Shown in pieces: positions 1 to 58,093 of a stretch of DNA of 64,000 bases; position 1 is the stretch's first letter; each line of letters starts with the position of its first letter. The notes beneath the pieces are model-generated. The model was not told the origin of the DNA and searched no databases. It saw only the letters and a program-made list of their open reading frames with translations. The position numbers and the translations under genes are program-made. This stretch comes from a virus. The DNA is taken from IMG/VR virus record IMGVR_UViG_3300028374_000796, one strand, 5' to 3'.

Positions 1-448
1 TACCATTGAAACGAGCCATAACATCCCCATATTTCCCTTGCTTTAGGGAAGGATCCTGCTCTTCGGTTTCAATAATGATGCCTTCCTGACCTTCAAACTC
101 TTCATAGATGTCAAGAGTCGTTTCATTATTATGGGATTTTGTTTCGATCAGACATTTATCCCCTTTCTCCCACCTCAACGCACCCTTAGGTTTCTTTCCT
201 TTAGGCTCTTTTACCTCTATCCCCCAACCACGCTCAATAAACTTAACCATGTCCCTTACCTTGGTAGCCTCGTCCCTCATCTGCGCCCATCTAATGAATC
301 GTTCCGTCGTTTCATTAATGGCTATCTTTTGATGTACAGATTCTTTAGGAATAGAGGAGGCTTTCTTTTTCGCAAAGGACAGAAATTCATCCTTAAATTC
401 AGGATGTTTACGGGAAAGCTTAATAAGTTTCTTTTTTAGTTTCGACAT
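1..448 (-). CDS. Hypothetical (probable virion) protein with the shared N-terminal leader motif; runs off the window edge and is absent from the ORF track
   Basis: Manual translation from ATG at 448 with GGAG RBS upstream gives MSKLKKKLIKLSRKHPEFKDEFLSFAKKKASSIPKES...DVMARFNG; the frame is open to position 1. Confidence 0.85.
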   Translation of the reverse strand, partial: MSKLKKKLIKLSRKHPEFKDEFLSFAKKKASSIPKESVHQKIAINETTERFIRWAQMRDEATKVRDMVKFIERGWGIEVKEPKGKKPKGALRWEKGDKCLIETKSHNNETTLDIYEEFEGQEGIIIETEEQDPSLKQGKYGDVMARFNG

Positions 449-506
449 AGGAAAATCTCCAAGGATTTAAATTGCAATAAAGAGAGTGCTTCTCCCTATT
501 GGAAAT

Positions 507-514
507 ATAAATAG
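507..514 (-). promoter_or_regulatory. Candidate late-promoter motif CTATTTAT
   Basis: The same 8-mer lies in non-coding DNA upstream of four head/packaging-module genes (507, 7256, 11528, 20549). Confidence 0.4.
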
Positions 515-638
515 AAAAGTGATAGAATTAGGAGGTCTAGGTGAAGGGTTAAAAAGAAAAGTATCTATGTTAGTCTTAGGGGTTCCGGTAGTAGTGGTAG
601 TAGTCATTACTAATTTCTCTACCCTTTTTCTTAGTAAC

Positions 639-2546
639 TCACTTCCTGAATACCAGAACAGGCTCGTATCCTCGGTAACTCAAATTAGACAGAGGCATTC
701 TCAACGTGTCCTCGTGTACAAAGCCCAGAGAAACAGCACAGGAAGTCGTAAGAGATACTAGAGGAACTGTTTCTTTCGTTTTATTGCTGTCATTCAGATC
801 CGCAATATTAATGACTAAGTACCCACCCTCCTTTAAGTGGGTAAGGGCAGTCTTGAAAATAGGCTTCAAAAACCCGTCAGTCCAATCCTGTGCTGTCGAC
901 CCATAGTTTAAGTACGACTGACCATCTGCAGAAGAGTATTGCTCACGATCGAAATAAGGAGGGCTTGTGAATACTAGATCCAAAGGTCTGGATATATCAA
1001 AAAGTTCAGCTTCTTGATGTACTATCCTAGCTTCTAGATCTCCGACCTGACCCAATCTCTTCAAGTCTTTATAGATTTTCCTATTGCCTTCTACCGTTTC
1101 CAAATCAACGTCAGTACCTATATAGTTCATTTGAGAAGACATTGCTCCCAAGAGACGACCTCCATAGCCGCAGCAAGGATCCCAATACCAACCTCCGGGT
1201 TGACCATAGGTATCACAAATGAACTTAGCTTGTGCAGGTTTGAATAGGGTAGGAGTCCTCAGATTGGCTTGTAAAGCTCGCCTTACTCTCTTAGGGGTAA
1301 CAGGTGACCCATATTTTAACTGAAAGGTTACAGCTTGTTTTAATTGATCTCGGTCATACCATCCTTCCCTGCAGGACATTGAAGCTTCTGAATTTAACGC
1401 TTTGTACCGATTAAGGAAATAAGGTCTGCATAGTTCCAATCCATAATAAGAATTAGGTCTTATTTCTTTTTCTTCGTTAAGCGCCATCTCTTTTGTGGAT
1501 AATTTTTGAAACTCTAAACGAAACTGTTTATCTACTACTTGGAAAGGTTCGGGAAAAGGAGTCCTTAATAGTATGTCAATAGCCCTTTCCCTGTCAAGAA
1601 TCTGTTGTTCATTATCAAGGTCATTCCACCCCTCATAGTCTATGTCCTCCAGAAGACTCTCACTTGCCTCCAGGGATAACACATTATGCGAGCTATAATC
1701 GGTGTCACACTTCTTTGCCCGTCTCCAACACGTTACTTTGGGGACGCCGTAAATCGTTTCCATTTGGTCAAAAGACATGCCAAAGAATTGGTTAAGGAGG
1801 GCAGCTTTTTGTGGGGTGATATCTTTTTTCGGCACTTTAACCTTTAATTCTAGAATATCAGGAAGAAAAGAAATGTCATCTGACTCCAAGGTATAAGCCT
1901 CTATTCTCTTCTTGACATGGGAACCTTGACCTTCCATAATAATGAGGTTACCTTTTATTTTGGCTTTTTCAAATCCCAGGTCCCGTAATAGTTTACAGAG
2001 ACGTTTTCGATCCGCTTTGCTATATGAGTTACGGGTTGGAACATGAACATCTAAACCGTCAAACGTCCAATTCCCCTCTACGAACCATGTTAAGAGAAAT
2101 AGGTCTTCTTCTACAATATTTACAATTAGTTCGTAAGGTATTTGGCGTCTCCCTATTTGGTTTGTCGAAGAGGAATAAAACTCACGAAGGGGTTGAATGA
2201 GTTTAGAACTAACACTCATCAAGCGATACCCACCTCCGCTGTTGTCTTCTTTAAGAGAGGATACCAATGAGGGTCCTAACTTCTTTTCCTTCCATTTTAA
2301 CCAGTCTAGATCATGGGAAGTCTGAATAAATTGTGCAGTCTTATTAAGACTTACTTCCCGGACGGTAGACCCACAGATGAGAGTAGCCATTAAGATAGCT
2401 TTCTGCTCCGGAGTAAGAGAGTTGAGCACGGGCGCTTGAGAGGTCTGAATAAATTGAGCAGTAGATTTCCCTACTTTCATGATGGTAGAACCTGATAAGA
2501 GGGTAGAAGCTATTAAAGCTTTTTGTTCAGGGGATAGATACTTCAA
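639..2546 (-). CDS. DNA methyltransferase (N4-C/N6-A type) fused to a degenerate LAGLIDADG-like domain and an HTH
   Basis: C-terminal SAM motif DPCCGYGGRL and catalytic FTSPPYF. The N-terminus resembles LAGLIDADG_2 motifs (LSPEQKALIASTLLSGS, QTSHDLDWLKWK, LTWFVEG) with the usual GDG/DDG acidic residues altered. Confidence 0.8.
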   Translation of the reverse strand: MKYLSPEQKALIASTLLSGSTIMKVGKSTAQFIQTSQAPVLNSLTPEQKAILMATLICGSTVREVSLNKTAQFIQTSHDLDWLKWKEKKLGPSLVSSLKEDNSGGGYRLMSVSSKLIQPLREFYSSSTNQIGRRQIPYELIVNIVEEDLFLLTWFVEGNWTFDGLDVHVPTRNSYSKADRKRLCKLLRDLGFEKAKIKGNLIIMEGQGSHVKKRIEAYTLESDDISFLPDILELKVKVPKKDITPQKAALLNQFFGMSFDQMETIYGVPKVTCWRRAKKCDTDYSSHNVLSLEASESLLEDIDYEGWNDLDNEQQILDRERAIDILLRTPFPEPFQVVDKQFRLEFQKLSTKEMALNEEKEIRPNSYYGLELCRPYFLNRYKALNSEASMSCREGWYDRDQLKQAVTFQLKYGSPVTPKRVRRALQANLRTPTLFKPAQAKFICDTYGQPGGWYWDPCCGYGGRLLGAMSSQMNYIGTDVDLETVEGNRKIYKDLKRLGQVGDLEARIVHQEAELFDISRPLDLVFTSPPYFDREQYSSADGQSYLNYGSTAQDWTDGFLKPIFKTALTHLKEGGYLVINIADLNDSNKTKETVPLVSLTTSCAVSLGFVHEDTLRMPLSNLSYRGYEPVLVFRK

Positions 2547-2556
2547 TATAGAATCC

Positions 2557-3891
2557 TTATGATTTTACACCAGCACAATAAGGGCACCAATGTCCTTGCC
2601 TGATACTATTAGGAACTGCTTTCCAGACATGTCCTTCTTTGCATTGCCATTCTAATTTAGTTTGGGAGTTTACGTATACAGAGGATAAACACTCACCTTC
2701 GTTCTTTGTTGCGGTTTTTACCATATCTTCTATAGACAACTTAGCATATCCTGAACATTTTCGACACCATTTCCCGCTTAATATATTAGCGGGTTTTGAT
2801 TTCCATTGATGACCCTTCTTACATTCAAATTTCATTTTTTGATGAACATGTACATAATTAGAGGATAACACTTTACCTCCGAGTTTCCTAGCTTTCTTTC
2901 TAAGTAGTGTTAGGCGCTTCGTAGAATGGCTAAAAACATAAGCATCCAGAAAATCTATTTCTTTTGCCCTCATTTCATTTGAGATGTTAATACCTGATGT
3001 TTCTAACGTCTCTAATGCGTAATTCTGGAGATTAGAAATTGAGGTATAAGAAGGTATTTCTGGTATCTCTATCAATACCACAGAATGCTCATTACACAAT
3101 GCTTTCTTTTTCTTATCCCTTTTAACTTGTTTTTTAAAAGCTGCTTTGTCCTTATGAAAGATTCTTGTAAAAGAAAAATGCTGTTCCCCTTGGTGTTCAA
3201 AAGCGATGCCAAGAGATTTATTATACCCGTCTAACTCCATTTGAGTATTTCTTTTGGTTTTTAACCACTTTGGGTATGAAGTAGGAAACTTAGCATCAAA
3301 CACTTGCTCAAATACACACCTAACCAAACGTTCTCCAAGACTAGTATAACACTCGGGGCACCACCTTCCTCTCTTTACGTTATCTGGAGTGGCTTCCCAC
3401 TTATGACCCTCACTACATTGCCATCTAAGTTTTGTGCTTGTGTTGACATAATTAGTAGAAATACATAGACCCCCACGATCAATAGCCAACTCTTCCATTT
3501 CTTCAATAGTTAAACGAATATTTCCAGCACAGTGAGGACACCAAGATCCTAAGTCTTGCACACAGTGGAAAGTAGATTCCCACTGGTGTCCCTCTGAGCA
3601 TTCCCATAGTAAGGGCCTTCTATTATTTATGTATTTATTGGAAAGACACTTCCCTTTGTTTTTGGAGGCAAGATCTTTTGCATCTTCAATTGAATTTTTA
3701 GCCATTCCGGCGCAGTGAGGACACCAGCTATTTTTATTTCGGACATTATCTGGAGAAGCTTTCCATTGATGTCCCTGTGAGCATTCCCAAGTAATAGGTG
3801 TTTTGGCACTGTTATAAACCTTTGCTAGACATGTACCTCCCTTAGAATTAGCAGTTTTTTCAAGATCGTTAAGAGTTAGTTTTCTAGGCAC
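2557..3891 (-). CDS. Zn-ribbon-repeat protein with a central PD-(D/E)XK-like endonuclease domain (probable free-standing homing endonuclease)
   Basis: Five ~57-aa repeats (W-x-C-x2-GH-x-W...WCPxC) flank the segment ELDGYNKSLGIAFEHQGEQH. Confidence 0.75.
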   Translation of the reverse strand: MPRKLTLNDLEKTANSKGGTCLAKVYNSAKTPITWECSQGHQWKASPDNVRNKNSWCPHCAGMAKNSIEDAKDLASKNKGKCLSNKYINNRRPLLWECSEGHQWESTFHCVQDLGSWCPHCAGNIRLTIEEMEELAIDRGGLCISTNYVNTSTKLRWQCSEGHKWEATPDNVKRGRWCPECYTSLGERLVRCVFEQVFDAKFPTSYPKWLKTKRNTQMELDGYNKSLGIAFEHQGEQHFSFTRIFHKDKAAFKKQVKRDKKKKALCNEHSVVLIEIPEIPSYTSISNLQNYALETLETSGINISNEMRAKEIDFLDAYVFSHSTKRLTLLRKKARKLGGKVLSSNYVHVHQKMKFECKKGHQWKSKPANILSGKWCRKCSGYAKLSIEDMVKTATKNEGECLSSVYVNSQTKLEWQCKEGHVWKAVPNSIRQGHWCPYCAGVKS

Positions 3892-4285: not shown

Positions 4286-5164
4286 TTAGCGCTGTACAAC
4301 CAGACGACAAAGGCCGCGTGGGTTGAAGGCACCGATACCTAGGTTTTCAAAAACTGAAAATCCGATGGTTCTAGACTTCGGGTCATCAGCCGAAAGTACC
4401 GTCAATTCGGTACGAACGGGGATACGCCCAAACATTTCCGGATCGCAGCATACATAAACGTATCCGGGTGGTACAAGCCGAGAAACGATGATCTGAGCGC
4501 CCCAAAGGGTAGCCATAAGACCAGTTTTCAGCAAAGTAGCCTGAGATTCGATATCGAGGATTTCTCGACCGAACTTACGAATATCACCGTAATCACGGGC
4601 ATTCATGTAAATTCGAGCAACACGAAGGTCGTGTCTTTCGATTTCTGCAAAAGCATCAGCTAGTACAGAAGAGTTGATTGGTGCAACAACCTGCTGGTCA
4701 GGGTTAGTCTGACCGCTCATGTTATCGAATCCGGAAACTGCGATGGAATCGAGAACTGCAAAAACTCTCTCGTCTTCAGCAGCCTGAATCTGTGCTTTCG
4801 CAAGATCCTGGGCTCTTTCAATGAGGTCGAAACGACGCTCTTTGATCTGAGTCAAAGGAATTTCTGGGTTGGAAGCGATTTCGAATAAGGGAAAGATTAC
4901 TCGACGTGGCTTCTGAATAGCGAGAATGTTCTCGCCTTCCTCACCTACGACATAAGCCGTTACGTCGGGATCTTTGTCATAAATTGGGAGAGCGCCATCG
5001 GGGAGTTGCTCGACGAGAAAAGTCTTTCGTCCAACCGAAGTGTAGTCTCGACGAGTTCTCAAGGGTTGAATCATCGAAGCTGCGAGTTTGGCACGACCAG
5101 CAGCGGTTTTAATATACTCGCTGATGATCTTTTGCTTTACAGCATTATCTAAATTTTGAGACAT
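4286..5164 (-). CDS. Major capsid protein (HK97-fold type)
   Basis: 292 aa with a GGAGG RBS. It is the last gene of a scaffold-decoration-capsid run and is followed by a strong terminator; it has the backbone-helix-like segment IERAQDLAKAQIQAAEDERVFAVLD. Confidence 0.8.
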   Translation of the reverse strand: MSQNLDNAVKQKIISEYIKTAAGRAKLAASMIQPLRTRRDYTSVGRKTFLVEQLPDGALPIYDKDPDVTAYVVGEEGENILAIQKPRRVIFPLFEIASNPEIPLTQIKERRFDLIERAQDLAKAQIQAAEDERVFAVLDSIAVSGFDNMSGQTNPDQQVVAPINSSVLADAFAEIERHDLRVARIYMNARDYGDIRKFGREILDIESQATLLKTGLMATLWGAQIIVSRLVPPGYVYVCCDPEMFGRIPVRTELTVLSADDPKSRTIGFSVFENLGIGAFNPRGLCRLVVQR

Positions 5165-5185: not shown

Positions 5186-5809
5186 TTAAACGCGCAGGTC
5201 GAAGAGGACTTCTGCGTGTGCGTTATCAGGGGCGATTTTAACAACTCCGAGTACCGTTGCGTCAGCAGCGGCTCCACCGTCAAGTTCAACGTGAGCATCA
5301 CCAACTAAGTTAGTGAGGTACCCGTTCTGAGAAGCATAGAGGAAGTCCCCTGCGCCATACTCAAGAGCGTCTCCAATAGTAGCAACTACAAGCTGCTGTG
5401 TTTCATACAACATGGAACCCATGGTTCCCTGAGATGAGACATAAGGACCTTTGCCAGAAGCGGGTCCAGGAGTATTTTCATAAGCGTTGCCAGCAGCATC
5501 GTTAATGAAAAGACCAAGAGGACGAACAGCTCCAGCAGCTGCAGTATCAGCTACGGGACCCCCGACAAAACCGTTACCGGCATCTGGTCGGGTGAAAGCG
5601 ACGGATCCTGAAAGGACACCGTACTTGGGAGTTGTTGCAAGTCGCTCGGAGCGGGTACCCGCTGCGTCTACGACGGGAGGATTGGTTTGAGTGAAACCAT
5701 CAGTGGTAAGTTCAGCAGCAAACGAGTTGCGATGTCCTACATATAGAATACGGAGGGCCGAAGATGCACCTTTGAAATCATCACTCGCCTGTCCAGGCAT
5801 ATTTGACAT
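5186..5809 (-). CDS. Probable head decoration/cement protein
   Basis: 207 aa, Gly/Ala/Thr-rich, located between the scaffold and the MCP gene. Confidence 0.55.
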   Translation of the reverse strand: MSNMPGQASDDFKGASSALRILYVGHRNSFAAELTTDGFTQTNPPVVDAAGTRSERLATTPKYGVLSGSVAFTRPDAGNGFVGGPVADTAAAGAVRPLGLFINDAAGNAYENTPGPASGKGPYVSSQGTMGSMLYETQQLVVATIGDALEYGAGDFLYASQNGYLTNLVGDAHVELDGGAAADATVLGVVKIAPDNAHAEVLFDLRV

Positions 5810-5910: not shown

Positions 5911-7101
5911 TTAAAATACGTCAGAAACGTCGGGATCGGACTGCCAGAGTTTCGAGAGATCAACATCATCTCTCCCTCCGTCAGACGCTGCTTTCACCCG
6001 CCCGCCAAGACTTTGAACTCCTTTGGAACCTGATGCTTGGCGTTGGCCTTGCGTAGATTCTTGTTGTGGAGCCTTCGTCTGTGCTTCTTTTGGAACCGTG
6101 CCAGAAAAAAGATTTGCGAGAACAGAGTCGTCTTCAGCAATCGAAGCTCCTACTGTGTCCATCGTTGGTTCAAGTTCGATGTCCATGTCTGTGGGGGCAT
6201 AGCCATCCATATCCATGTCGTCATGATCTTCAAGATGCTCATCAGCATCCATCATTTCCGCAATCATCGCCTCGATCTCAGGGTCTTCCTCTGAGTGAGT
6301 TCCCATATCCATTGGGGTACCTGCTTCTTTATCTTCATCTTCATCATCATCATCTTCGTCATCTTCGTCATCTTCATCTTCGTCGTCTTCGTCATCTTCA
6401 TCTTCGTCCTGTTCAGACAACATCTCACGAAGCATTGCTTCTACTTCGTCATCATCATCGTCCTCTTCATCTTCATCATCTTCGTCTTCTACTTCATCAT
6501 CTTCAGCAAGCATCTCACGAAGCATTGCTTCGATTCGATCTTCATCAAAAGAAGAAGCTTTTTTCTTGCCTTTCTCTTCTTCGTCTTCCTTAGCGTCTTC
6601 CTTAGCGTCGTCTTCTTTCTCTTCTTCGTCGGCATCAGCCAATCGAACAATAGTAGAAATAACAACTTCGTCGGGAAGGCTCATGAAATCAAAAGCCTGC
6701 GCTTCAATAAGGGATTCAGGTGCGCCGGGAAAAAGGGCGTCTGCGATTTTGACACATTGAAATGCTTTTCGCTCCAAGTGTGCATATACATCGCGACTTG
6801 CTTCTCTTTGCTGACTAGCAGACCGGTTACGATCGCCACCATCAAAGGTGTAAGCATTGTCATAGGCATCATCGGAGTTCCACTCATTCACATCTTTGTG
6901 TGTAAGATTGGACTCTGACATATTAGGTTGACCAATTTCATTTCGGCCAAGTGCGGGGTCGTCAGGAAGAGGCTGATGTACATCTTCAGCCCAAGCACTG
7001 GGGTCTCCAGCTTGGTACTTGTCATGAGCAGGTTGCTCACGTTCCTGATTCATTTTATAAGGATCTGCTTTTTTGTTCCAAGAAAGTCTTTTTCGACTCA
7101 T
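5911..7101 (-). CDS. Probable capsid scaffolding protein (very acidic)
   Basis: ATG at 7101 with a GGAGG RBS; long D/E tracts and a repeated EAMLREML; located between the protease and capsid genes. Confidence 0.65.
   Translation of the reverse strand: MSRKRLSWNKKADPYKMNQEREQPAHDKYQAGDPSAWAEDVHQPLPDDPALGRNEIGQPNMSESNLTHKDVNEWNSDDAYDNAYTFDGGDRNRSASQQREASRDVYAHLERKAFQCVKIADALFPGAPESLIEAQAFDFMSLPDEVVISTIVRLADADEEEKEDDAKEDAKEDEEEKGKKKASSFDEDRIEAMLREMLAEDDEVEDEDDEDEEDDDDDEVEAMLREMLSEQDEDEDDEDDEDEDDEDDEDDDDEDEDKEAGTPMDMGTHSEEDPEIEAMIAEMMDADEHLEDHDDMDMDGYAPTDMDIELEPTMDTVGASIAEDDSVLANLFSGTVPKEAQTKAPQQESTQGQRQASGSKGVQSLGGRVKAASDGGRDDVDLSKLWQSDPDVSDVF
6421..6531. repeat. 21-nt direct repeat CATCTCACGAAGCATTGCTTC (two copies, 90-nt period) within a D/E low-complexity tract
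   Basis: Copies at 6421-6441 and 6511-6531. Confidence 0.9.
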
Positions 7102-7255
7102 GATTTTTACCTCCAAACCACGGTGGGGTGGGTATTGTCTTACGAACTAGCGCTAGTTTGTTTGACTTACCCTCTGCCTTTATGGTAAGAAGGTAAGATA
7201 AGTGAAGGGAGAAGGATCTAAGCCTTCCCGCAGTCGCTTCACCTAAAGGGTTTCT
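7102..7255 (-). promoter_or_regulatory. Long structured 5' leader of the scaffold-capsid operon
   Basis: Stems GTGAAG/CTTCAC, TCTTAC/GTAAGA and CTTACC/GGTAAG, plus the palindrome AACTAGCGCTAGTT. Confidence 0.45.
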
Positions 7256-7263
7256 ATAAATAG
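7256..7263 (-). promoter_or_regulatory. Candidate late-promoter motif CTATTTAT
   Basis: Intergenic, upstream of the scaffold-decoration-MCP operon. Confidence 0.4.
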
Positions 7264-7304
7264 AATAGCGAAATAAACCCTAGTTTTTCTTTGTTTAACT
7301 GGAT

Positions 7305-7688
7305 TTAGTCTGAATTTTTGGTAATAAGAGATAGTAGCTCTATTCTCAATTCAGGATTTTTATGTGCAATTCTGATAAGGGAATCTCTCAACTGAGTAGA
7401 AGATTCTTTCTCCAGATCATCTTCTACCTTCTTTTTGCTTTTAGTCTCAGGCTTTTTCTTATTACTCTCGTGCCATTCTTTTTGGATCCTTATTCTGTCT
7501 TCCATAGGCAAAGAATGATATTTAACGTCCTTGCCGGTTTCAGGATGTTTGAACTTCTTTCCTTCCATAGCATCCAAAAACTTACTTTTTCTGCCCTTAG
7601 CACTCGCAAGAAGTGATAGAACTTTGGGCTTGAGTTCAGGGTTTTTATGTGCTACCTTAATCAAGGTATTTCTTAGCTTTTTATTCAT
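7305..7688 (-). CDS. Small basic protein with two copies of the shared leader motif
   Basis: LRNTLIKVAHKNPELKPKVLSLL and LRDSLIRIAHKNPELRIELLSLI. Confidence 0.8.
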   Translation of the reverse strand: MNKKLRNTLIKVAHKNPELKPKVLSLLASAKGRKSKFLDAMEGKKFKHPETGKDVKYHSLPMEDRIRIQKEWHESNKKKPETKSKKKVEDDLEKESSTQLRDSLIRIAHKNPELRIELLSLITKNSD

Positions 7689-7701: not shown

Positions 7702-10515
7702 TTATTTTAAAAGTTTACTTCTACGAATGAGAACCTTAGATTCCCCTACGGAAGTTTTTCTACCCAAAGCCAAGTGACAGGCATTCAGAAATGAATGAAC
7801 ATTGTTATAGTTGGAAGACCCACCTACCTTAGATAAGCAAGTATATAGTTCAGAGGGTAAAGGACTGGATCCATAGTCTCTATCTTTCAGGTACATAGCA
7901 GCAACAATGTCTCTATTAGATACCTGATTCATTCTAGCTACCTTGTCCCATCCTCCTTCTTTAGCTTCATAGATAACAGAAAAGACTTTTCTCAAACGAG
8001 TGCTATTCTTAATCTCAGATGAGTATCGAGAAGAGAATGCTTGAAAACCTGAAATGATATTATCATTCACGTTAGGCTTTCCACTGTCTCCTTTGTCCTC
8101 AAACAAAACTTCCCGTGGGTCTAAGCCCAACTCGTTTTTCATATCCTCAGTGATTTCTTTCTTGATATCGTTATGAAGCTCTTTCTTGATATCGTTTCGA
8201 ATTTCTTCGATAGGAGAACCTTCATCTCCTCCTTCTTCGTCTTCCTCCTCCTCATCATCAAAACCAAAGGACTTTTTAGATACGGAAGCTAAACGAGAAT
8301 TCAATTCCTCTTTGAGAATACGAACAGACTCTAGTTCTTGCCCCAGTATTTCTTGGGCAGCCGTTCTAACATGTTTGTCAATGTTCTGACTTTCCAGAAA
8401 CTCTGCCAACATAGGAGAAGCTGTAAGCAACTCAGCTTGCTTCTCAGCGGTTGCTTCTCTCTCTTCAGGGGTGATATCGGAAGAAGAGTTAAGAATGCTT
8501 CTAAGGACCGCTCCTTTGAATGCAGGGTTAGCTACCCAAGAAGCTTCAATGAAAGTAACGGATTCTGGATCAGTTTTATAACCACAGAGTTCTGCAATTA
8601 CACGCTTCTTTCCTTTGGCATCATGAAAATAATTGCCTTTCTCATACTTGACATGTTCGCAAAGTTCTGTTTCGTCCGCAGCTACGTTTCCACATTTCGT
8701 GCAAATGCTGTATTGAATAGAGCATCCCATACTCAAGGTATTGATTTTTCCCGCTTCGATATCTGCAACAAGTTCACCGTGCTTACGGTTAGTTGCTACC
8801 AAAATATCAACATAGACGGTATCGCCCAGGTCTCTGGATACTGCATCAATTACCTTACCTTTTGATAAATCTGGAATCTGAATGTGTTCTACATAGTTTT
8901 CGGCACCAATGAAAGTACGATAGGTACCCATGAGAAGTTCTCGCTCCCACGCATCTCCATTGCAATTATGAACTGCGAATCCATTAGCTAAGTACGAATG
9001 ATCCTCTTCTACCTCGATATTATAGACTTTAGTGTTTTCGGGTCTTGCCTCGACTTCGGTGATCATTTGGACACAATAATCATTAATGAATCGATGAGAA
9101 GGGGCTGTTTGCACTTTCACGTCAAATAAATCCTCATAGATAGTGTCTTTAATTAATTCAGACACCCAACAATATCCAACGAGGACTTCCCAACATTCTA
9201 GGGTAGTACTAAGGTCATTTATAACAGATCCCGTTACAGGGTCTTTGATACGACCAGGACGTTCTCGGTGAGAGCGGCGGGACGAAATTCCTAATGAATT
9301 TAGAATTTGATGAACTTGATTAATCAGGGAAGCAGAGGCCGAGGTACCCTCTAACCTAGGAGCCTTTTCTCCCGTAGGGACGAAAAAGGATCCATCTCCT
9401 TCAAACCAACCTCTGAGAATTTCAAAAAGAATTTCAGAAGACTCTTGTAGAAGGTATGGATGTAGGTATTTTGTTACAGACTCATTACCTTTTACCCATT
9501 TTTGGAAAAAAGATACCATATCTCTATTAGTGCGGGTCGTGGTGACATAAATACCCTTATGGTCACTGGAATCACGAACTACACATTGGACCCCAAATTC
9601 GGACTCCATTAATTCTACGACATTTTGTGCTAAAGTATGACGCTCATTTTCGTGAAATGCCCACAGTACCCCTACTTTGGAATTATCATTATAGCTATCA
9701 AGTTCATAATGACCTTCGGCAAGGAAGTATCCTATGAGACGAGCTTGTCCTTTGGTAATTCCAGTGTTATATACATCTATAGGGATAATAGGCTGCGTAG
9801 CAAAATGCTGTTTAGGAGTTAAATCCTCTGCTTCCAAAAAAGTCCCGTCTTTTTCTTTAAGAAGGGATTTATTAGAAGCTCCCTTTTCATAGTAGCACCA
9901 CTTAGAACAATAATGTCTGCCTAGTAAATGAGATGCGCTTTTATTATTTCTATCAATGTCGGAACCACACTCAACACATTCTTTATTAGCCTCAAAGACA
10001 AAGAAAGGATGCTCGGGAGTGGTACTAAGACGCTCATTGGATCCCTGGATTTTAATGTCCAGAATATTTCCCTCATAATCATTTTCAAAAGTCTGTGTAA
10101 CTTTTCTAATTCTCCCCTTATGAGTTCTTACCTCATCTCCAACTCGAACATCTTCGATATTTTTGACAGTACCATCACCCATAGTAATATGAGTACCGCT
10201 TTCAAAACAGTTCACAAATTTTGAAGTTTCTGGTGTGATATAATAATCGTTGTGGAGTCTCTTAATGGACTGACCACCGTCCCCCTGTATCTTTTCCCCT
10301 ATCTTTACGTTAGGAACTTCATCAACGTCTACAGACGCAATGATAGTACAGTGAGTAAGGAGGTATTTGCTGGGATCAGCATACTCTCCTAAATTAATAG
10401 AAGATCCTGTTTTGTTAAAAGGATCAGTGGAAGAAGCCTGGCGGATTTGATTCCACTTATCTTTTCCCACATTAGATTCTTCAACGATAGCTTTTGCAAA
10501 TTTTAAGAAGGCCAT
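7702..10515 (-). CDS. Prohead (head maturation) protease, intein-containing, with an acidic C-terminal extension
   Basis: The spliced product reads SKFVN-CNGDAWERELL; candidate catalytic His (YVEH) and Ser (TLSMGC); located in the head module. Confidence 0.75.
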   Translation of the reverse strand: MAFLKFAKAIVEESNVGKDKWNQIRQASSTDPFNKTGSSINLGEYADPSKYLLTHCTIIASVDVDEVPNVKIGEKIQGDGGQSIKRLHNDYYITPETSKFVNCFESGTHITMGDGTVKNIEDVRVGDEVRTHKGRIRKVTQTFENDYEGNILDIKIQGSNERLSTTPEHPFFVFEANKECVECGSDIDRNNKSASHLLGRHYCSKWCYYEKGASNKSLLKEKDGTFLEAEDLTPKQHFATQPIIPIDVYNTGITKGQARLIGYFLAEGHYELDSYNDNSKVGVLWAFHENERHTLAQNVVELMESEFGVQCVVRDSSDHKGIYVTTTRTNRDMVSFFQKWVKGNESVTKYLHPYLLQESSEILFEILRGWFEGDGSFFVPTGEKAPRLEGTSASASLINQVHQILNSLGISSRRSHRERPGRIKDPVTGSVINDLSTTLECWEVLVGYCWVSELIKDTIYEDLFDVKVQTAPSHRFINDYCVQMITEVEARPENTKVYNIEVEEDHSYLANGFAVHNCNGDAWERELLMGTYRTFIGAENYVEHIQIPDLSKGKVIDAVSRDLGDTVYVDILVATNRKHGELVADIEAGKINTLSMGCSIQYSICTKCGNVAADETELCEHVKYEKGNYFHDAKGKKRVIAELCGYKTDPESVTFIEASWVANPAFKGAVLRSILNSSSDITPEEREATAEKQAELLTASPMLAEFLESQNIDKHVRTAAQEILGQELESVRILKEELNSRLASVSKKSFGFDDEEEEDEEGGDEGSPIEEIRNDIKKELHNDIKKEITEDMKNELGLDPREVLFEDKGDSGKPNVNDNIISGFQAFSSRYSSEIKNSTRLRKVFSVIYEAKEGGWDKVARMNQVSNRDIVAAMYLKDRDYGSSPLPSELYTCLSKVGGSSNYNNVHSFLNACHLALGRKTSVGESKVLIRRSKLLK
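8965..10209 (-). mobile_element. Intein (415 aa) with LAGLIDADG endonuclease in the prohead protease
   Basis: Starts CFESGT, has block B TPEHPF, endonuclease motifs LIGYFLAEG and RGWFEGDG, and ends HSYLANGFAVHN followed by +1 Cys. Confidence 0.95.
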
Positions 10516-10535: not shown

Positions 10536-11477
10536 TTATTCGTTATTTCGATAAGTGCCGCGATAGAATCTTTCGAGCACGTTGTTAGTGGTAGTATCAA
10601 AATACCCAGGAGTTCTAACAACTTTTTGCTTAGGTACGTCATCATCCTCTACAACAGGGAGTGGACCTGCGCCTAAATCTTCGGGGGTATCTTCTAATTC
10701 TTCTATCCTATCTTCATCAGCTTTTTTAAAAATGCTTGATTCACGGTCTCCATAAACCGCTTGAAGAAGGGGATCCTTAGGGGTGAAGAAATCCACAACG
10801 GTTCTTTGTTGGTCCAAAGGTTCTGGTTCTTCTCCAGGATTTAATAAATCCGCAGGAGTGATCATCCAAAGACACTGTGGACAAACATAGAGCTTTGTTC
10901 TTTTCTGATAACAGGCTTTCTGCAATTCAGTTTTGCACTGAGGACAATGAAAACAGCTTGTTTCTACTTCGGATTGAGTAGGGCCATATTGACGACCTTT
11001 AGCTTTCCAGTATAAAGAGTTCTTGACTCTTGATTCTATAAAGGCTACTCTAATAGATCTCTGAATTTCATCGTCACTATGCGTTGAAGCAAAACGAGAA
11101 AAGAGGAAGTTATAGGCATCCATTTCTTGCAAGCCTTCTTCCCGTAACCTATTAGCTTTTGATACTAGATTAGAATACCTTTTATGGTAAAAAGAAGATG
11201 CTACCCTCTGAGCGCGTTCGCGCTCCCAAGTATTATCTCCAGTATCTTCCAAATCTGTATCTTCAATATCCCGTTTCGTTACTTCCGTAGGAGATAATCG
11301 AAGTGTTCCAAAAGATGTTTCAACATCCAGGAACCCAATCTTATCTAAAACAGCAGTAACTCTACCCATAGAAGGAGCATATCTGTTCCCCCTCGTGAAA
11401 ATAGGTAGGAGCACAATGTCTCCTATTGTAAACTGTTGACAGAGCTTCCGCTCATCTATGTAGGCTTTTTTAGTCAC
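10536..11477 (-). CDS. Hypothetical head-module protein with a CxxC...CxxC zinc ribbon
   Basis: CPQCKTELQKACYQKRTKLYVCPQC. Confidence 0.7.
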   Translation of the reverse strand: MTKKAYIDERKLCQQFTIGDIVLLPIFTRGNRYAPSMGRVTAVLDKIGFLDVETSFGTLRLSPTEVTKRDIEDTDLEDTGDNTWERERAQRVASSFYHKRYSNLVSKANRLREEGLQEMDAYNFLFSRFASTHSDDEIQRSIRVAFIESRVKNSLYWKAKGRQYGPTQSEVETSCFHCPQCKTELQKACYQKRTKLYVCPQCLWMITPADLLNPGEEPEPLDQQRTVVDFFTPKDPLLQAVYGDRESSIFKKADEDRIEELEDTPEDLGAGPLPVVEDDDVPKQKVVRTPGYFDTTTNNVLERFYRGTYRNNE

Positions 11478-11527
11478 AAGAGGGCTCCGTAGTTAAAATG
11501 AAAAAGAAAAGCCCGACCGCCTTTCTA

Positions 11528-11535
11528 ATAAATAG
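11528..11535 (-). promoter_or_regulatory. Candidate late-promoter motif CTATTTAT
   Basis: Intergenic, about 50 nt upstream of the GTG at 11477. Confidence 0.35.
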
Positions 11536-11556
11536 GAAAGACGGTCGGAAAACTTT

Positions 11557-12195: not shown

Positions 12196-13590
12196 TCAAT
12201 TTTCGGTAACTCTCAGTAATAAATCTAAGAGAGCGTTATAGGTTGGTGCATCAATTGTGTTGTCATACTTCCCCTGATCACAAGTATAAATAGAGTAATC
12301 AAGAGCAATTCTACATGCCATGTCTGGATTATATCCAACCAGGTCATTAGATAGAAAAGGCTTTTTTAAACATTCCATTGCTTCATGTATAATAACAGCA
12401 AAATCTTTTTCATCTAGCTGTCTGGGGTCTTTGAGACGCCATTTAGGTGAAAGAGTCTTAAACCCATCATCTTCATGGAGGGGTCCAGGTAGACCACGAT
12501 ATTGTGCCCCTTTCCTAAATCCTGATCGGATAGCAGAGGCGATTTTTTTACCTTTTTCATCTGTAGTGGTTTTCTTCATCTCTAATGCCCCATCAAGGAT
12601 ATATTGCAAAGTGGTGATCCAGGCTGCCTCATTAGACAGATGGTTTTTTATTTGGTCCGAGGCTTCTTTTGCGGTTTCTATAAGAGTTTCTGTTTGCTCA
12701 AAGCCTGTTCTTCTTAACCTTTCTCTCCATTCTTTAGCCTGTTTCTTCAGTTCGGATCGGGAACCCTGATCAAATTCTTCGTCAGGTTCCTCAATATTTC
12801 TGAGAATTTCATCTAGATCTAAAGGGGGAAAGTCCTCTTTCTTAAAATTTTCCCAGGCATTTTCTACTAGCTGTATCATGACCTGATAGTAACTTTCATA
12901 CCAACCCCGACTCTCGGTGAGGCTTTCATTAATATACTTTTCTTTAAAATAGGTCAGATTGTCTGCGAACTGTTTTGCGTCCCAATTTTCCATGTGACGG
13001 CGAAACCGATGCCTCTCTTTGAGCTTGACCACTCCCTCTTCAAATACTTCATCCCGATCCCATTCAGGGGGCTTAGGACGAGTCTTTAATCCAAGGGCTT
13101 GCTTTATTGCTTTCTTTTCCCCAGCACTATAATCACTCCCCAGCATGTGTTGTAGCTCTGCTGCAGGTCTTTCGTATAGTTTGATAGCAGCATCTAGGAC
13201 CGCCTGCTCTGTTGCAGGACGATTCTCTTTTATGGGTTCCTTCTCTTTTTCTGATTCTTCTTCTATCTCATCAACGTCTTCTTCCAGATTGTCTTCTTCA
13301 ACTTCTTCTTCATCTTCGAGTTCTAATTCGTCTTCATCAAACTCAAAAGAAAGTATAGTTTTGAGAGCTACCCTCTTTGCAATAGAGGACCCTCCAATGT
13401 CCTTATAGTTTAGAGAAAGATCCTTATCATCACTATCGAGATCGGGATCTTCTACTTTAATACGGTCACGATTCTTGTCAGTTCTTGGAGGTTTCTTAGT
13501 CGGGCTTTTCTTAACCAGACGCTCTACTTCCTCGTTCTCTCTTTGGTATTGGTCCTTTGTGGACGTTTTGTATGGAGAAGTTTTCACCAC
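12196..13590 (-). CDS. Hypothetical head-module protein
   Basis: 464-aa ORF with an acidic tract, between the portal and protease genes. Confidence 0.7.
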   Translation of the reverse strand: MVKTSPYKTSTKDQYQRENEEVERLVKKSPTKKPPRTDKNRDRIKVEDPDLDSDDKDLSLNYKDIGGSSIAKRVALKTILSFEFDEDELELEDEEEVEEDNLEEDVDEIEEESEKEKEPIKENRPATEQAVLDAAIKLYERPAAELQHMLGSDYSAGEKKAIKQALGLKTRPKPPEWDRDEVFEEGVVKLKERHRFRRHMENWDAKQFADNLTYFKEKYINESLTESRGWYESYYQVMIQLVENAWENFKKEDFPPLDLDEILRNIEEPDEEFDQGSRSELKKQAKEWRERLRRTGFEQTETLIETAKEASDQIKNHLSNEAAWITTLQYILDGALEMKKTTTDEKGKKIASAIRSGFRKGAQYRGLPGPLHEDDGFKTLSPKWRLKDPRQLDEKDFAVIIHEAMECLKKPFLSNDLVGYNPDMACRIALDYSIYTCDQGKYDNTIDAPTYNALLDLLLRVTEN

Positions 13591-13685: not shown

Positions 13686-15455
13686 TTAGAACCTTCCGCC
13701 GCCCTCTTCAGGTTCGATATACTGTACATCGAACTGAGATACCTGTGACAGATACTTAATGAATAGGGGAAGGAAGTCAGACTTCTCAACCATTCCCCTT
13801 CCTACTTCACTGAGAACGCCTCTAATGGCTTCGTTGAAGGTAGCATCGTTGACGGTGAACATATCATTCTCTAACTGCTCACGAACCGCGTCAGGGTCCA
13901 AGTTAAATAGTTCAAGAATATAGTTGACAGAGAGGGAACCTTTCTGGTATAGATTGAACAGAGAGTCGAAAGTGTCTCTGTTATCTCTGACTGCCAAACG
14001 AGTGAAAGATAGTTTGGGGTAAAGAAGTACCTCATTACCAAATTCATCCATCTCTACAAAGCCTTTCCTTCTTGCAATAGGCTTAAAGAGATATTCTTCA
14101 ACATACCGTTGGATGTGGTCTCTATATAGAAGGTATCTATTATTGATTATCTCCAGATTGATTTTTTCTGCGCCAAAGGAACCATCTCCTGTCAGCATAG
14201 ATTCAGTCACTCCCAGTCCAGCGAACAACTGACGATCGGTCATATCATATTCACCACTCAAATTGAGCAGCCTAGAGTCCGCAGATATCTCTTCCCAATT
14301 CACCTGATAGTTCGTGATAATGGAAAAGTCAGGATCGAGTAGAGCAAGGTCAACCTGATCTCGTAATTCTTCTACATCATGAACATCCAAATCTTCTGCA
14401 TAAATAAGACGCTTTGGAGTCATTGCTCGGGAAGCGATACTTGTCTGTGCCTGTCTCAGTTTGTCTCTGTATACCAGAGTTCTAAGACACCTCTGGAGAA
14501 TAGAAACTCCATTGGTTTGATAGCTCGGTTTTGATCTAGCCAGATGATAGACAAAAGACCCTTCATGGGGATCGGTTCCTAGAGGAATGTTTTGTCCCGT
14601 TTCCAAATACTGCCGAATCTCTTTAGGGATATTCAGGTATTGTTTACTTGCCTGGGGATCCCCTTGCATAGCTCGTTGTACTAAATTAGCAGTTCTGGCA
14701 TCGGGAATGAGTTCAATGATATCTTCATCACTAAACTGAAAAGCATTTAGTTGTACTTGATCCGGTGGCAAAACTTGAAGTCTTTTCCAACCTTTATAAT
14801 GCTTTCTTTTATACTCTTCTTCAAGCTCACGCCAATTTGATCTATTCTTCTTCGTTACAACAGCTTCGCCGTCAAGTGTAATCTCATGTTCATACTTGAA
14901 ATAGATTTCTTCAGGGACCTCTACGGGAGTATCCTCTGCAAAAATAAAAGCCTCTCCGATCACATAATACTCACGAGTCGCATCAATGAGAACTTGAAGT
15001 AAATTAATTTGATCTACCATATCCGTAAAATAGGTTAAAATCTTACGGTTTTGTTTAGGGTCTTTCCCTTTAGGCAAAGTCAAACGAATCTTAGAAAGAG
15101 GCAACTCAGTATGGAGATCAATTGCTTGACCTACATAAGGATCATTATTATAGAAATGCCTGTAATAGGACCTTTGCTCTGTTCTATTCTGAGGAAGCTC
15201 AAGGAAGTCTGGAGACAAGTGTGGGCTATAAATATTAGTCCCCTGTCCATGCATAAAGCCGCCTCCGAAAGCACCAGCTCCCATTCCACCACTACCTGTT
15301 CTAAGGTTCATAGAAGCTACTGCGACCTTCTTACGGCGAGACGCTTCTACTTTCCTGCCCGGGGTTATCTCAACCTTACTAGGAGGATAAGAAGACCTAC
15401 GCACCTCTGAAACTCTGGATACAATTACACTTTGATCATCATTTGTTCTTGCCAT
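13686..15455 (-). CDS. Portal protein
   Basis: 589 aa, downstream of TerL; portal-like segments FYNNDPYVGQAIDLH and GVSILQRCLRTLVYRDKLRQAQ. Confidence 0.8.
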   Translation of the reverse strand: MARTNDDQSVIVSRVSEVRRSSYPPSKVEITPGRKVEASRRKKVAVASMNLRTGSGGMGAGAFGGGFMHGQGTNIYSPHLSPDFLELPQNRTEQRSYYRHFYNNDPYVGQAIDLHTELPLSKIRLTLPKGKDPKQNRKILTYFTDMVDQINLLQVLIDATREYYVIGEAFIFAEDTPVEVPEEIYFKYEHEITLDGEAVVTKKNRSNWRELEEEYKRKHYKGWKRLQVLPPDQVQLNAFQFSDEDIIELIPDARTANLVQRAMQGDPQASKQYLNIPKEIRQYLETGQNIPLGTDPHEGSFVYHLARSKPSYQTNGVSILQRCLRTLVYRDKLRQAQTSIASRAMTPKRLIYAEDLDVHDVEELRDQVDLALLDPDFSIITNYQVNWEEISADSRLLNLSGEYDMTDRQLFAGLGVTESMLTGDGSFGAEKINLEIINNRYLLYRDHIQRYVEEYLFKPIARRKGFVEMDEFGNEVLLYPKLSFTRLAVRDNRDTFDSLFNLYQKGSLSVNYILELFNLDPDAVREQLENDMFTVNDATFNEAIRGVLSEVGRGMVEKSDFLPLFIKYLSQVSQFDVQYIEPEEGGGRF

Positions 15456-20472: not shown

Positions 20473-20548
20473 CATCGTTTTTATCGTAGTCGTTGTTAGG
20501 TCATTTCGTAAGAAGACCCAACCCTTCAGGTATGAGGGTGTTGATTAA

Positions 20549-20556
20549 ATAAATAG
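20549..20556 (-). promoter_or_regulatory. Candidate late-promoter motif CTATTTAT
   Basis: Intergenic, about 110 nt upstream of the TerL-paralogue ATG. Confidence 0.35.
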
Positions 20557-21151: not shown

Positions 21152-21688
21152 TTACTGTCTATTCAAATAAGATGCAATACGCTGAACAGTTTTTCTAGCA
21201 GGGTCCGTCATAAACATACGGATCTTATCTGAGAAGTTTTTAGATCCTCGGGCACCTTTGATGTCAATATTGATATACTCGGGAGCCAGAGAAAAAGAAA
21301 CATCTGCGAAAAAGGTAATCTTCTCTCCATCCTCATCATGCTTAGTAAAACGAAAGCCCAGATCCTCTTCACCCCTAAGCTCAAAAGACATTCCGTCAAG
21401 TCCTTCAACAGAATCCTTTAGCTCACTAGAGATATGACCAATATAGGAAGAAAGAAGTTCTCCCAATGAAGTTCGCTTTTTGATGCGAACCATTGATCCT
21501 TCCCTAGACATAGAAGAGGTATCAGTTTTGGAAGGAGAAACCGAATAGGGGTCTCCTTTCCGAATAAAAGCAGATGTCTTTCCCCTACTAGTATCACTGG
21601 AAATACGAGTCAGTACGGGAACAATATGCTGCCGTAACTCAGGTTTTTGATTTCCTAGACGAATAAGGCTTTTCTTTAGATTTGACAT
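21152..21688 (-). CDS. Hypothetical protein with the shared leader motif
   Basis: MSNLKKSLIRLGNQKPELRQHIVPVL. Confidence 0.75.
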   Translation of the reverse strand: MSNLKKSLIRLGNQKPELRQHIVPVLTRISSDTSRGKTSAFIRKGDPYSVSPSKTDTSSMSREGSMVRIKKRTSLGELLSSYIGHISSELKDSVEGLDGMSFELRGEEDLGFRFTKHDEDGEKITFFADVSFSLAPEYINIDIKGARGSKNFSDKIRMFMTDPARKTVQRIASYLNRQ

Positions 21689-55541: not shown

Positions 55542-55946
55542 TTAGATGCGAGACTGTTCTTTATACAGTTCAATCATATCCACGATCTTACCTGCTGCGA
55601 ACGTCTCACCAGTACGGGAGGGATCATTCACACTTCGGGGTCCGGTTCCGGAAATCTGTACGATCACGGTGCCTTCGTCGAACCGGACAGAATATTTCAT
55701 CTGACGAGGATCGAAAGATACCTCAGTGTCCTGACCGCGATAAGATACTATATAATGATGTCTTCCGACCTTTTTAACGGATCTCATAGCCTCTTGTTTC
55801 TTTTCCTCACGATATTTGATATAAGCGGGATCCCAGTCTTCTTCTGAAGCGTTAACTTCGACCGCTGCAATAATTTTTTGGAGATGAGGTCTAAGTTCAG
55901 GGGTATCAGAACCCAAACGAATAAGTTGGTTTTTCAAGTTTGACAT
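55542..55946 (-). CDS. Hypothetical protein with the shared leader motif
   Basis: MSNLKNQLIRLGSDTPELRPHLQKII...VNAS. Confidence 0.75.
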   Translation of the reverse strand: MSNLKNQLIRLGSDTPELRPHLQKIIAAVEVNASEEDWDPAYIKYREEKKQEAMRSVKKVGRHHYIVSYRGQDTEVSFDPRQMKYSVRFDEGTVIVQISGTGPRSVNDPSRTGETFAAGKIVDMIELYKEQSRI

Positions 55947-57456: not shown

Positions 57457-57463
57457 AATAAAT

Positions 57464-57670
57464 TTACTGGTTGCGGAGTATATCTGCCAAGGCATCTAGC
57501 TCTTTTAATCCAACAACGGTACAACGGACCTCTTTATCGAGATACTGGGCTAGGACCTCTTCTAAGTCTACCAGGGTTCCGTCTACCTGTTCGATTTGAT
57601 AAGGGCCATCTTCTTCTTTTCGGAGATAGCCTTCTAATAGATGTCCTAATGATGAGGGAAACTGACTCAT
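57464..57670 (-). CDS. Hypothetical protein
   Basis: 68-aa ORF with an AGGA RBS. Confidence 0.6.
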   Translation of the reverse strand: MSQFPSSLGHLLEGYLRKEEDGPYQIEQVDGTLVDLEEVLAQYLDKEVRCTVVGLKELDALADILRNQ

Positions 57671-57697
57671 AAAAATTCCTTTACTTGTAGTATCTAA

Positions 57698-58093
57698 TTA
57701 GTTGTAAACTTCAATGCTAGGCAGCTGAATAGCCATTTTAGCTGTATCTCCCCTTTCAATTAAGGTAACAACATCTTTCCAGGCGGAGTCTTCGATCTTC
57801 ATGTTCGCAGCTTTTTCAATTTCCGAACGAAGACCTGAAAGCCCTTTAGTTGTGATAGTAGTTTCCGAGCTATTATGTGTAATTCTCCATTCCGCATCTT
57901 TAGGAATAGGATCCCCAATTCGATGATCTCGATTCATGGGACCTCCAATCCAAATATGTATTTGGTTTTGTGAATTTACTCTTAAAGGTTTAAGAGCAGT
58001 CTTCTCCAGTGTAGCTAGAACAGGACGGAGGTGATATCTCAACTCAGGGTTAGTTGATCCTAGTTTAATAAGTTGTTCTTTTAGATTAGTCAT
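57698..58093 (-). CDS. Hypothetical protein with the shared leader motif
   Basis: ATG 58093: MTNLKEQLIKLGSTNPELRYHLRPVLATLEKTA. Confidence 0.75.
   Translation of the reverse strand: MTNLKEQLIKLGSTNPELRYHLRPVLATLEKTALKPLRVNSQNQIHIWIGGPMNRDHRIGDPIPKDAEWRITHNSSETTITTKGLSGLRSEIEKAANMKIEDSAWKDVVTLIERGDTAKMAIQLPSIEVYN

What the first reader, a model, noticed from the sequence alone, without database searches (positions are those of the whole stretch)
359..58093. A ~28-aa leader shared by five dispersed, otherwise unrelated proteins: candidate capsid-targeting signal
Seen: six copies of L[KR]xxLI[KR][LVI][GAS]xxxPE[LF][KR]xx[LIVF]xx[LIVF]. They occur in ORF <1-448 (LKKKLIKLSRKHPEFK), 7305-7688 (two copies), 21152-21688 (LKKSLIRLGNQKPELR), 55542-55946 (LKNQLIRLGSDTPELR) and 57698-58093 (LKEQLIKLGSTNPELR). 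Five copies are N-terminal, and the downstream regions share no visible similarity. Several are followed by small-residue sites (KKASS, KTSA, VNAS, EKTA). Established: T4 internal proteins share a short capsid-targeting sequence that the prohead protease removes. Inference: this is a modular address tag that loads diverse cargo proteins into the head for ejection into the host.
Basis: partly seen in the sequence, partly recalled or inferred. Interest (0 to 1): 0.8.

Follow-up and report, generated by a model that had tools for sequence, protein, structure and literature searches.

The report
Portable hairpin tag on huge-phage proteins
A clade of uncultured giant phages puts the same 30-residue helix-turn-helix peptide on dozens of small, basic, otherwise unrelated proteins, most likely as an address tag that the head protease later clips off, though packaging into the capsid has not been shown.

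Summary
Six copies of L[KR]xxLI[KR][LVI][GAS]xxxPE[LF][KR] lie on five minus-strand ORFs; none occurred in 100 shuffles. The window is part of a phage-G-like huge phage. The motif is a portable module. With it masked, 29 bearers from three genomes share one similar pair. P0003 homologs exist with and without it. AlphaFold2 models it as a confident helix-turn-helix hairpin, then a disordered linker, then a folded body. It is widespread and undescribed: 3,529 protein clusters, 5-16 tagged genes in each of six related phages of 250-536 kb (6-17 copies), none in 596 Gb of prokaryotic genomes, no Pfam or NCBIfam family, and no paper. Tagged proteins are small, basic and unannotated.

The capsid-targeting reading is only partly supported. 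In its favour, the hairpin is followed at a fixed distance by [KR]-x-A-[SAGT]. That signature also punctuates the acidic scaffold candidate at aligned sites and flanks the prohead protease domain. Against it, most tagged genes lie outside the head module, copies also occur internally, C-terminally and in multi-copy proteins, and relatives with the same head genes lack the tag. No virion data exist.

The scan had not recorded this hairpin before. Earlier notes on related phages flagged the K-x-A site.

The parts
2..448 (-). P0001, tagged ORF (3' end runs off the window); leader hairpin at 356-445, junction KKAS at 356-367
   Evidence: candidate late-promoter element 58 nt upstream
7305..7688 (-). 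P0002, 127-aa bivalent protein: hairpin at the N-terminus (7593-7682) and at the C-terminus (7308-7397), small beta-beta-alpha middle domain and Lys-rich linker; inserted between protease and scaffold candidate, absent at this spot in G003, G007 and G001
   Evidence: AlphaFold2 pLDDT 93-95 on both hairpins
21152..21688 (-). P0003, tagged ORF next to the terminase genes: leader 21596-21685, disordered linker with junction GKTSA/F (21566-21583), folded alpha/beta body
55542..55946 (-). P0004, tagged ORF between the NAD-dependent DNA ligase gene and a 499-aa ORF; leader 55854-55943
57698..58093 (-). P0005, tagged ORF just downstream of the ribonucleotide reductase gene; leader 58001-58090; ATG start at 58093 supported by homolog lengths
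7702..10515 (-). Prohead (head maturation) protease interrupted by an intein (about residues 103-517); conserved [KR]-x-A at its N-terminus and just after the protease domain
5911..7116 (-). Acidic scaffold candidate (D+E 32%), six [KR]-x-A-[SAGT] sites against 0.8 expected, conserved C-terminal tail unlike the leader
5186..5809 (-). 207-aa protein in the position of phage G's capsid decoration protein gp26
   Evidence: position only
4286..5164 (-). Major head protein (HK97-type, 292 aa), 79-86% identical across the tag-bearing relatives
13686..15455 (-). Portal protein
506..515 (-). Candidate late-promoter element TCTATTTATA upstream of P0001 (others at 7255-7264, 11527-11536, 20548-20557 upstream of head genes; 12285-12294 and 27933-27942 are inside ORFs)
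   Evidence: 6 matches, all on the coding strand, 1.35 expected, none in 28-64 kb

Best explanation
The motif is a self-contained helix-turn-helix hairpin of about 30 residues: helix LRxxLIRL(A/G), turn xxP, helix ELRxxLLPLL. It works as a portable docking tag. In this clade of phage-G-like huge phages it is placed mostly at the N-terminus of small, basic, fast-evolving proteins. The most likely mechanism has three steps. First, the hairpin's exposed hydrophobic face docks the protein onto a conserved phage-encoded assembly inside the prohead (head protein inner surface, core, or other hairpin-bearing proteins). Second, the prohead protease cuts at the [KR]-x-A/[SAG] junction that follows the hairpin, and that precedes internal copies, releasing the cargo. 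Third, the basic cargo stays with the DNA. Shown here: modularity, fold, distribution, the junction signature and its sharing with the scaffold and protease. Inferred: the docking partner, cleavage, encapsidation and ejection.
For: Portable module: 1 similar pair among 29 motif-masked bearers, and in that pair the tag is C-terminal in one protein and N-terminal in the other. In the P0003 family, four members carry the tag and three have a different short N-terminus, while the junction Lys is invariant. The tag is the largest shared N-terminal family in G007 (11) and G003 (7). In G007, genes in the same slots as P0003 and P0004/P0005 carry the same tag on a non-homologous body. Fold: hairpin pLDDT 93-95; tag, then a 33-residue disordered linker, then a folded body in P0003. 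Junction: [KR]xA[SAGT] follows 56% of copies against 2% expected (8 genomes) and 35% against 6% (database sample). Internal copies are preceded by K..A-S. The same signature occurs 6-11 times in four scaffold candidates against 0.8-2.0 in shuffles, at four aligned sites, and at both borders of the protease domain in five orthologs including phage G gp19. Cargo: 60 tagged proteins have median length 208 aa and pI 9.3 (bodies 8.5) against 5.2 for untagged window genes, and no enzyme domains. P0002 and P0003 abut head genes and P0001 has the head-gene promoter-like element. In G007, 13 of 16 tagged genes lie inside the virion module between tail sheath and terminase. T4 precedent for N-terminal capsid targeting and removal: PMC9026906.
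Against: There are no virion proteomics and no cultured phage with the tag. Outside G007, tagged genes are no closer to the head module than chance (3 observed against 2.8 expected). P0004 and P0005 lie among DNA-metabolism genes and lack the promoter-like element. In the multi-copy-biased database sample, more than half of copies are internal (183 of 342) and 47 are C-terminal, which a simple leader does not predict. G001 (complete), G002 and G004 have the same head protein, scaffold and protease but no tag and no substitute leader. No partner was found by phyletic profile. The conserved scaffold tail is unlike the tag. A-S and A-A next to helices could be helix caps rather than cut sites. 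The protease's fold and specificity are untested.
Confidence: 0.42

Rival explanations
1. Generic docking or self-association module unrelated to the capsid. The hairpins pair with each other (four-helix bundles) or with an unidentified hub. Multi-copy proteins would then build a multivalent network, such as a replication or assembly factory or a condensate, and single-tag proteins would be recruited to it in the infected cell.
For: Copies occur at N-termini, C-termini and internally, up to 5-6 per protein, separated by charged low-complexity linkers that carry other recurrent short modules. A lone two-helix hairpin has an exposed hydrophobic face that needs a partner. Most tagged genes are dispersed through the genome, some among DNA-metabolism genes. 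Relatives with identical head components do without the tag. From memory, not tested here: helix-turn-helix dimerisation/docking domains such as RIIa and DPY-30 work this way.
Against: It does not explain why the scaffold and protease junction signature sits at a fixed distance from the hairpin, nor the concentration of tagged genes in G007's virion module. The P0002 model gave no confident packing of its two hairpins (pTM 0.43). No hub was identified.
Confidence: 0.3
2. An oligomerisation hairpin for DNA-associated proteins. The tag dimerises small basic proteins that coat or organise phage DNA in the cell. They could also be in the virion, but the tag would not be an address signal.
For: Tagged proteins are strongly basic even without the leader (pI 8.5 against 5.2). 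P0002 has a Lys-rich linker. One tagged protein matches fusellovirus VP2 (E 4.6e-07), a virion DNA-binding protein according to general knowledge.
Against: Bodies are unrelated and mostly have no DNA-binding signature. The P0003 body is a generic alpha/beta protein-binding-like fold. Many multi-copy proteins have acidic linkers.
Confidence: 0.12
3. A degenerate helical repeat (LRV/HEAT-like) that is simply a common structural element with no targeting or docking role.
For: Two database hits have Pfam LRV repeats next to a motif copy. The motif is a leucine-rich two-helix unit.
Against: None of the window proteins or 60 sampled bearers matches LRV or HEAT. Copies are usually single and terminal (82% N-terminal), separated from the body by disordered linkers, and far better conserved than the bodies.
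Confidence: 0.08
4. Ordinary paralogues or chance similarity.
For: Some tagged genes are in tandem clusters (G007 216-223 kb, G003 62-65 kb).
Against: 0 matches in shuffles; no similarity beyond the motif; homologous bodies occur with and without the tag.
Confidence: 0.02

Closest known systems
Phage T4 capsid targeting sequence (CTS) on internal proteins IPI-III and Alt, removed by prohead protease gp21 (PMC9026906)
   Same: A shared N-terminal peptide on otherwise unrelated, basic, poorly conserved proteins; a candidate protease site right after it; a repertoire of tagged proteins that varies between related phages.
   Different: T4's tag is 10 residues; this one is a 28-30-residue structured hairpin. 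There is no sequence similarity. The T4 site is L/I-x-E, while here it is [KR]-x-A-[SAG]. This tag also occurs C-terminally, internally and in multi-copy proteins. The head lineage differs (phage-G-like small HK97-type head protein with a separate acidic scaffold). No experiment exists for this tag.
C-terminal helix-turn-helix coat-binding domain of the phage P22 scaffolding protein (general knowledge, not tested here)
   Same: A short basic helix-turn-helix that docks a protein onto the inside of an HK97-fold shell; P0002 and several relatives end with the hairpin.
   Different: The conserved scaffold candidate here lacks the hairpin and has its own conserved tail. The hairpin sits on many non-scaffold proteins, mostly at the N-terminus.
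Herpesvirus assemblin release and maturation sites (cut between Ala and Ser) and prohead proteases of related fold (general knowledge; the same analogy appears in earlier scan notes e1-5321754 and e1-5388521)
   Same: A small-residue Ala/Ser-type junction conserved at the end of the protease domain and near the scaffold C-terminus.
   Different: The fold and catalytic type of this protease could not be established here. Only an invariant His and Ser are seen in the alignment.
Encapsulin cargo-loading peptides (general knowledge)
   Same: Short terminal tags that send diverse cargo to the interior of an HK97-fold shell.
   Different: Those are extended peptides, usually C-terminal and not removed. 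No sequence similarity.
Propeptides of phiKZ/SPN3US head and ejection proteins (PMC5694885, PMC10052503, titles and abstracts only)
   Same: Giant phages that package many proteins whose N-terminal propeptides are removed by the prohead protease.
   Different: Those propeptides are not a single shared, structured motif. Cut sites end in Glu. The phage lineage is unrelated.

Membership tests
T4-type capsid targeting sequence | Located at the extreme N-terminus of the precursor | tested here: met
   5 of 6 copies in the window; 53 of 65 copies in eight genomes. However, 12 of 65 there, and most copies in multi-copy proteins, are not N-terminal.
T4-type capsid targeting sequence | Sequence related to the T4 CTS and followed by a gp21-type L/I-x-E site | tested here: not met
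   The motif consensus has no resemblance to the 10-residue T4 CTS. The junction is [KR]-x-A-[SAGT], not Glu-terminal.
T4-type capsid targeting sequence | Sufficient to load a foreign protein into the head; removed by the prohead protease | not testable with these tools
   Needs fusion and packaging experiments and mass spectrometry; no cultured member.
Scaffold-type coat-binding helix-turn-helix (P22-like) | Helix-turn-helix fold of about 30 residues | tested here: met
   AlphaFold2: H3-15, turn, H20-30, pLDDT 93-95; the C-terminal copy is the same; also in P0003.
Scaffold-type coat-binding helix-turn-helix (P22-like) | Carried at the C-terminus of the phage's conserved scaffolding protein | tested here: not met
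   The acidic scaffold candidates of four phages lack the motif and share a different C-terminal tail. P0002 has it but is not conserved at this locus.
Pfam LRV / HEAT-like repeats | Match to PF01816, PF25591 or PF13646 above threshold | tested here: not met
   No such hit for P0001-P0005 or for 60 bearers. Only two database proteins have true LRV repeats beside a motif copy.
Any curated family (Pfam, NCBIfam, PHROGs) | Significant profile match covering the motif | tested here: not met
   Best is DUF6865 at E 0.003-0.026, below its cut-off. NCBIfam gives nothing. PHROGs has no family covering the motif.
Assemblin/HK97-type prohead serine protease (for the cutting enzyme) | Fold and Ser/His catalytic residues | tested here: inconclusive

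The most novel reading that the evidence does not exclude
Phage-G-like megaphages build an internal protein core from multivalent hairpin-tagged 'beads-on-a-string' proteins. They dock a large, fast-changing set of small basic effectors onto it through the same structured hairpin. An Ala/Ser-specific prohead protease then excises the hairpins on both sides. This would be a structured, bidirectional, multi-copy cargo-loading code unlike the short linear T4 tag.
Probability: 0.25. Interest if true: 0.85.

Novelty: new variant of a known kind. Interest (0 to 1): 0.62.

Why it matters
Huge phages carry hundreds of genes of unknown function, and what they load into their capsids is known only for a few cultured models. 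A recognisable 30-residue tag, present on 5-16 genes per genome and in thousands of metagenomic protein clusters, would let one list candidate packaged or ejected proteins directly from sequence in an uncultured clade. These are likely early host-takeover or anti-defence factors. Together with the K-x-A-S junction it would give a testable processing rule. It would also offer a compact structured handle for loading foreign proteins into large HK97-type shells. If the tag instead drives a capsid-independent multivalent network, that would be a new organising principle for giant-phage infection.

Tried and rejected
1. Pfam, PHROGs and NCBIfam scans of the five window proteins, 20 two-ended proteins and 60 bearers found no family for the motif.
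2. The ESM Atlas search on P0002 gave no usable hit.
3. Foldseek searches gave nothing significant: P0002 against the PDB, and P0003 against the PDB and viral models. VIA-align on P0003 found only a common alpha/beta arrangement (best Z 10.1, actin-capping protein).
4. The phyletic-profile hunt for a docking partner failed. The two head-module genes missing from tag-less G001 by BLAST (10536-11477 and 20558-21118) are present in tag-less G002 and G004.
5. The head-module proximity statistic was rejected as general support because it depends on G007 alone.
6. I first considered P0002 to be the scaffold. I rejected this because it is absent from the same slot in G003, G007 and G001, where a conserved acidic protein fills the scaffold position.
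7. The protease family could not be established by PDB sequence or profile searches.
8. I looked for the window's own full genome in the viral collection and did not find it. No whole genome is held for the window.
I used an IUPAC DNA pattern instead.
11. A literature search for the motif string and for shared leaders in huge phages found nothing.
12. A J-domain (HPD) resemblance was considered and dropped. The His is not conserved in the window's variant and there is no DnaJ profile hit.
Full report
**What is in the window**

The window is one strand-uniform stretch of an uncultured huge phage. All real genes are on the minus strand.
- The first 28 kb hold a head and packaging module:
  - large terminase in two pieces, one with an intein (16104-19436 and 19452-20438);
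  - portal (13686-15455);
  - a prohead protease interrupted by an intein (7702-10515);
  - a very acidic 401-aa scaffold candidate (5911-7116);
  - a 207-aa protein in the position of phage G's decoration protein (5186-5809);
  - a 292-aa HK97-type major head protein (4286-5164).
- The rest encodes a sigma factor, clamp and clamp loader, nucleases, methyltransferases, a UvsX-like recombinase, a helicase, RNA and DNA ligases and ribonucleotide reductase.
- Cultured relatives, by major head protein identity, are Tunturiibacter phage Tunturi_5 (49%), Bacillus phage G (39%) and cluster-C mycobacteriophages (about 28%).
- Uncultured relatives of 250-536 kb share a head protein that is 79-86% identical, although their portals are only about 50% identical.

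**The observation**

Three regexes of decreasing stringency each find only these six in all six frames, and none in 100 shuffles.
- Five copies begin at residue 2-4 of their ORF. The sixth ends ORF 7305-7688, which therefore has one copy at each end.

**It is a portable module, not a paralogue signature**

- Among 29 bearers from the window and the syntenic relatives G003 and G007, masking the motif leaves a single BLAST pair. In that pair the shared domain has the motif at its C-terminus in one protein and at its N-terminus in the other.
- P0003 has six homologs among 5.8 billion proteins. Three of them replace the leader with an unrelated short N-terminus but keep the junction Lys and the C-terminal domain.
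- An unbiased all-against-all comparison of N-termini makes this leader the largest shared N-terminal family in G007 (11 members) and G003 (7).
- Tagged genes sit in non-orthologous slots between conserved genes.
- Where a slot is shared, the leader is the same and the body is not homologous. This holds for the P0003 slot next to the terminase and for the P0004/P0005 slot between ligase and reductase in G007.

**Structure**

- AlphaFold2 models both copies in P0002 as helix-turn-helix hairpins with pLDDT 93-95.
- In P0003 the hairpin (residues 2-31) is followed by a 33-residue disordered linker and a confident alpha/beta body.
- That body has only generic fold matches.

**Distribution**

- A profile of 14 copies, run against 1.84 billion cluster representatives, finds 3,529 proteins at E<=0.001 and 219 at E<=1e-10. 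None of the ten whose cluster records I looked up carries a name, and all ten come from metagenomes.
- A back-translated pattern of about 40 bits hits 16 places on 14 viral contigs of 52-536 kb, and nothing in 596 Gb of prokaryotic genomes.
- Six related phages carry 5-16 tagged genes each (6-17 copies).
- The only deposited phage record with the motif is an unannotated 485-kb metagenomic genome.
- Phage G, Tunturi_5 and the uncultured relatives G001, G002 and G004 have none.
- No Pfam, NCBIfam or PHROG family and no paper covers the motif.
- The scan's own notes hold no earlier record of this hairpin.

**What the tagged proteins are like**

- In eight genomes, 53 of 65 copies are N-terminal, 5 are C-terminal and 7 are internal.
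- The 60 proteins have a median length of 208 aa.
- They are basic: pI 9.3, or 8.5 without the leader, against 5.2 for the window's untagged genes.
- None has a recognisable enzyme domain.
- The database's top hits are biased toward multi-copy proteins. They show another architecture: two to six hairpins joined by charged linkers that carry other recurrent short modules.

**The junction**

This held in an independent set of four genomes.
- Stated as [KR]-x-A-[SAGT] at profile positions 24-34, it occurs after 56% of copies against 2% expected from the same proteins' downstream sequence. In the database sample the figures are 35% against 6%.
- Internal copies are preceded by the mirror pattern, K at -4, A at -2 and S at -1.
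- The same signature occurs 6-11 times in each of four scaffold candidates, against 0.8-2.0 in composition-matched shuffles. The sites lie at four aligned positions, including in tag-less G001.
- It is also conserved at the N-terminus of the protease and directly after its domain in five orthologs, including phage G gp19.
- Earlier scan notes on related phages had flagged the same K-x-A string as a likely head-protease site. I treat that as agreement, not proof.
- The protease's fold and specificity remain untested here, and the phage G literature gives no cut sites.
- In the window itself only P0001 fits the signature strictly.

**Reading and caveats**

The best-supported mechanism is a docking hairpin that brings small basic proteins to a conserved phage assembly and is then cut off at the junction by the prohead protease. 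That would place the cargo inside the prohead, as with the T4 capsid targeting sequence.

Weighing against it:
- Outside G007, tagged genes are no nearer the head module than chance. G007's enrichment reflects one cluster inside its virion module.
- P0004 and P0005 sit among replication genes and lack the promoter-like element shared by head genes and P0001.
- Phages with the same head protein, scaffold and protease lack the tag.
- The scaffold's own conserved tail is unlike the tag.
- No docking partner emerged.

A capsid-independent self-associating or hub-docking module therefore remains a serious rival.

**Limits**

- No whole genome is held for the window.

Noticed in passing
window 7702-10515, 16104-19436, 41756-44194, 58424-62251: Four essential genes (prohead protease, large terminase, UvsX-like recombinase, ribonucleotide reductase large subunit) each carry an intein with a LAGLIDADG or Hint domain. 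G007's orthologs of the protease, terminase and recombinase are much shorter and appear intein-free.
   Followed up: partly
window 506-515, 7255-7264, 11527-11536, 12285-12294, 20548-20557, 27933-27942 (minus strand): YCTATTTATW occurs six times, only on the coding strand and only in the structural half (1.35 expected). Four copies are intergenic, upstream of the scaffold candidate, a head-module gene, a terminase piece and P0001. This is a candidate late promoter, possibly read by the phage's own sigma factor (26910-27695).
   Followed up: partly
window 4286-5164 and orthologs in G002, G003, G005-G009: The major head protein is 79-86% identical across phages whose portal (about 50%), terminase (about 40%) and scaffold (about 30-40%) have diverged far more. 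This is unusually strong constraint on the shell protein.
   Followed up: partly
window 5911-7116 and scaffold candidates of G003, G007, G001: The acidic scaffold candidates share a conserved C-terminal tail (LSxLWxSxPDVSDVF) and repeated 'EAMLxEMLAE' units. The tail is a candidate head-protein-binding element.
   Followed up: no
window 639-3891: Directly downstream of the head protein gene lie a free-standing HNH endonuclease (2557-3891) and a 635-aa protein with a C-terminal DNA methyltransferase domain (639-2546). An earlier scan note (e1-5365466) describes nuclease-methyltransferase genes at the same spot in a relative.
   Followed up: no
database proteins P0013, P0014, P0022, P0044, P0088, P0123 and others; G003 82362-82856 and 153583-154539: Linkers between hairpins carry other recurrent short modules: a two-Cys 'CEKLP..M[RK].NC' module (14 of 149 hits), 'NMSPED...W' (13), 'YLxxHPxADxxxHxV' (17) and an 'HPxTGxxV' mini-domain as in P0002 (12). 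This looks like a wider vocabulary of short modules in these phages.
   Followed up: partly
G007 (IMGVR_UViG_3300021978_000001) about 13, 17-19, 25-29, 110, 127 and 405-409 kb: Dispersed repeated DNA whose translations read like translated CRISPR-type or REP-type repeats ('VFPAHAGMVR', 'GPSPHARGT..TIPACAGN').
   Followed up: no
P0164-P0166 (leaderless homologs of P0003): These start with a shared 'MNWYE' peptide in place of the hairpin and keep the K-x-A-A junction. This may be a different leader used in another phage lineage. Their genomic context could not be read.
   Followed up: no
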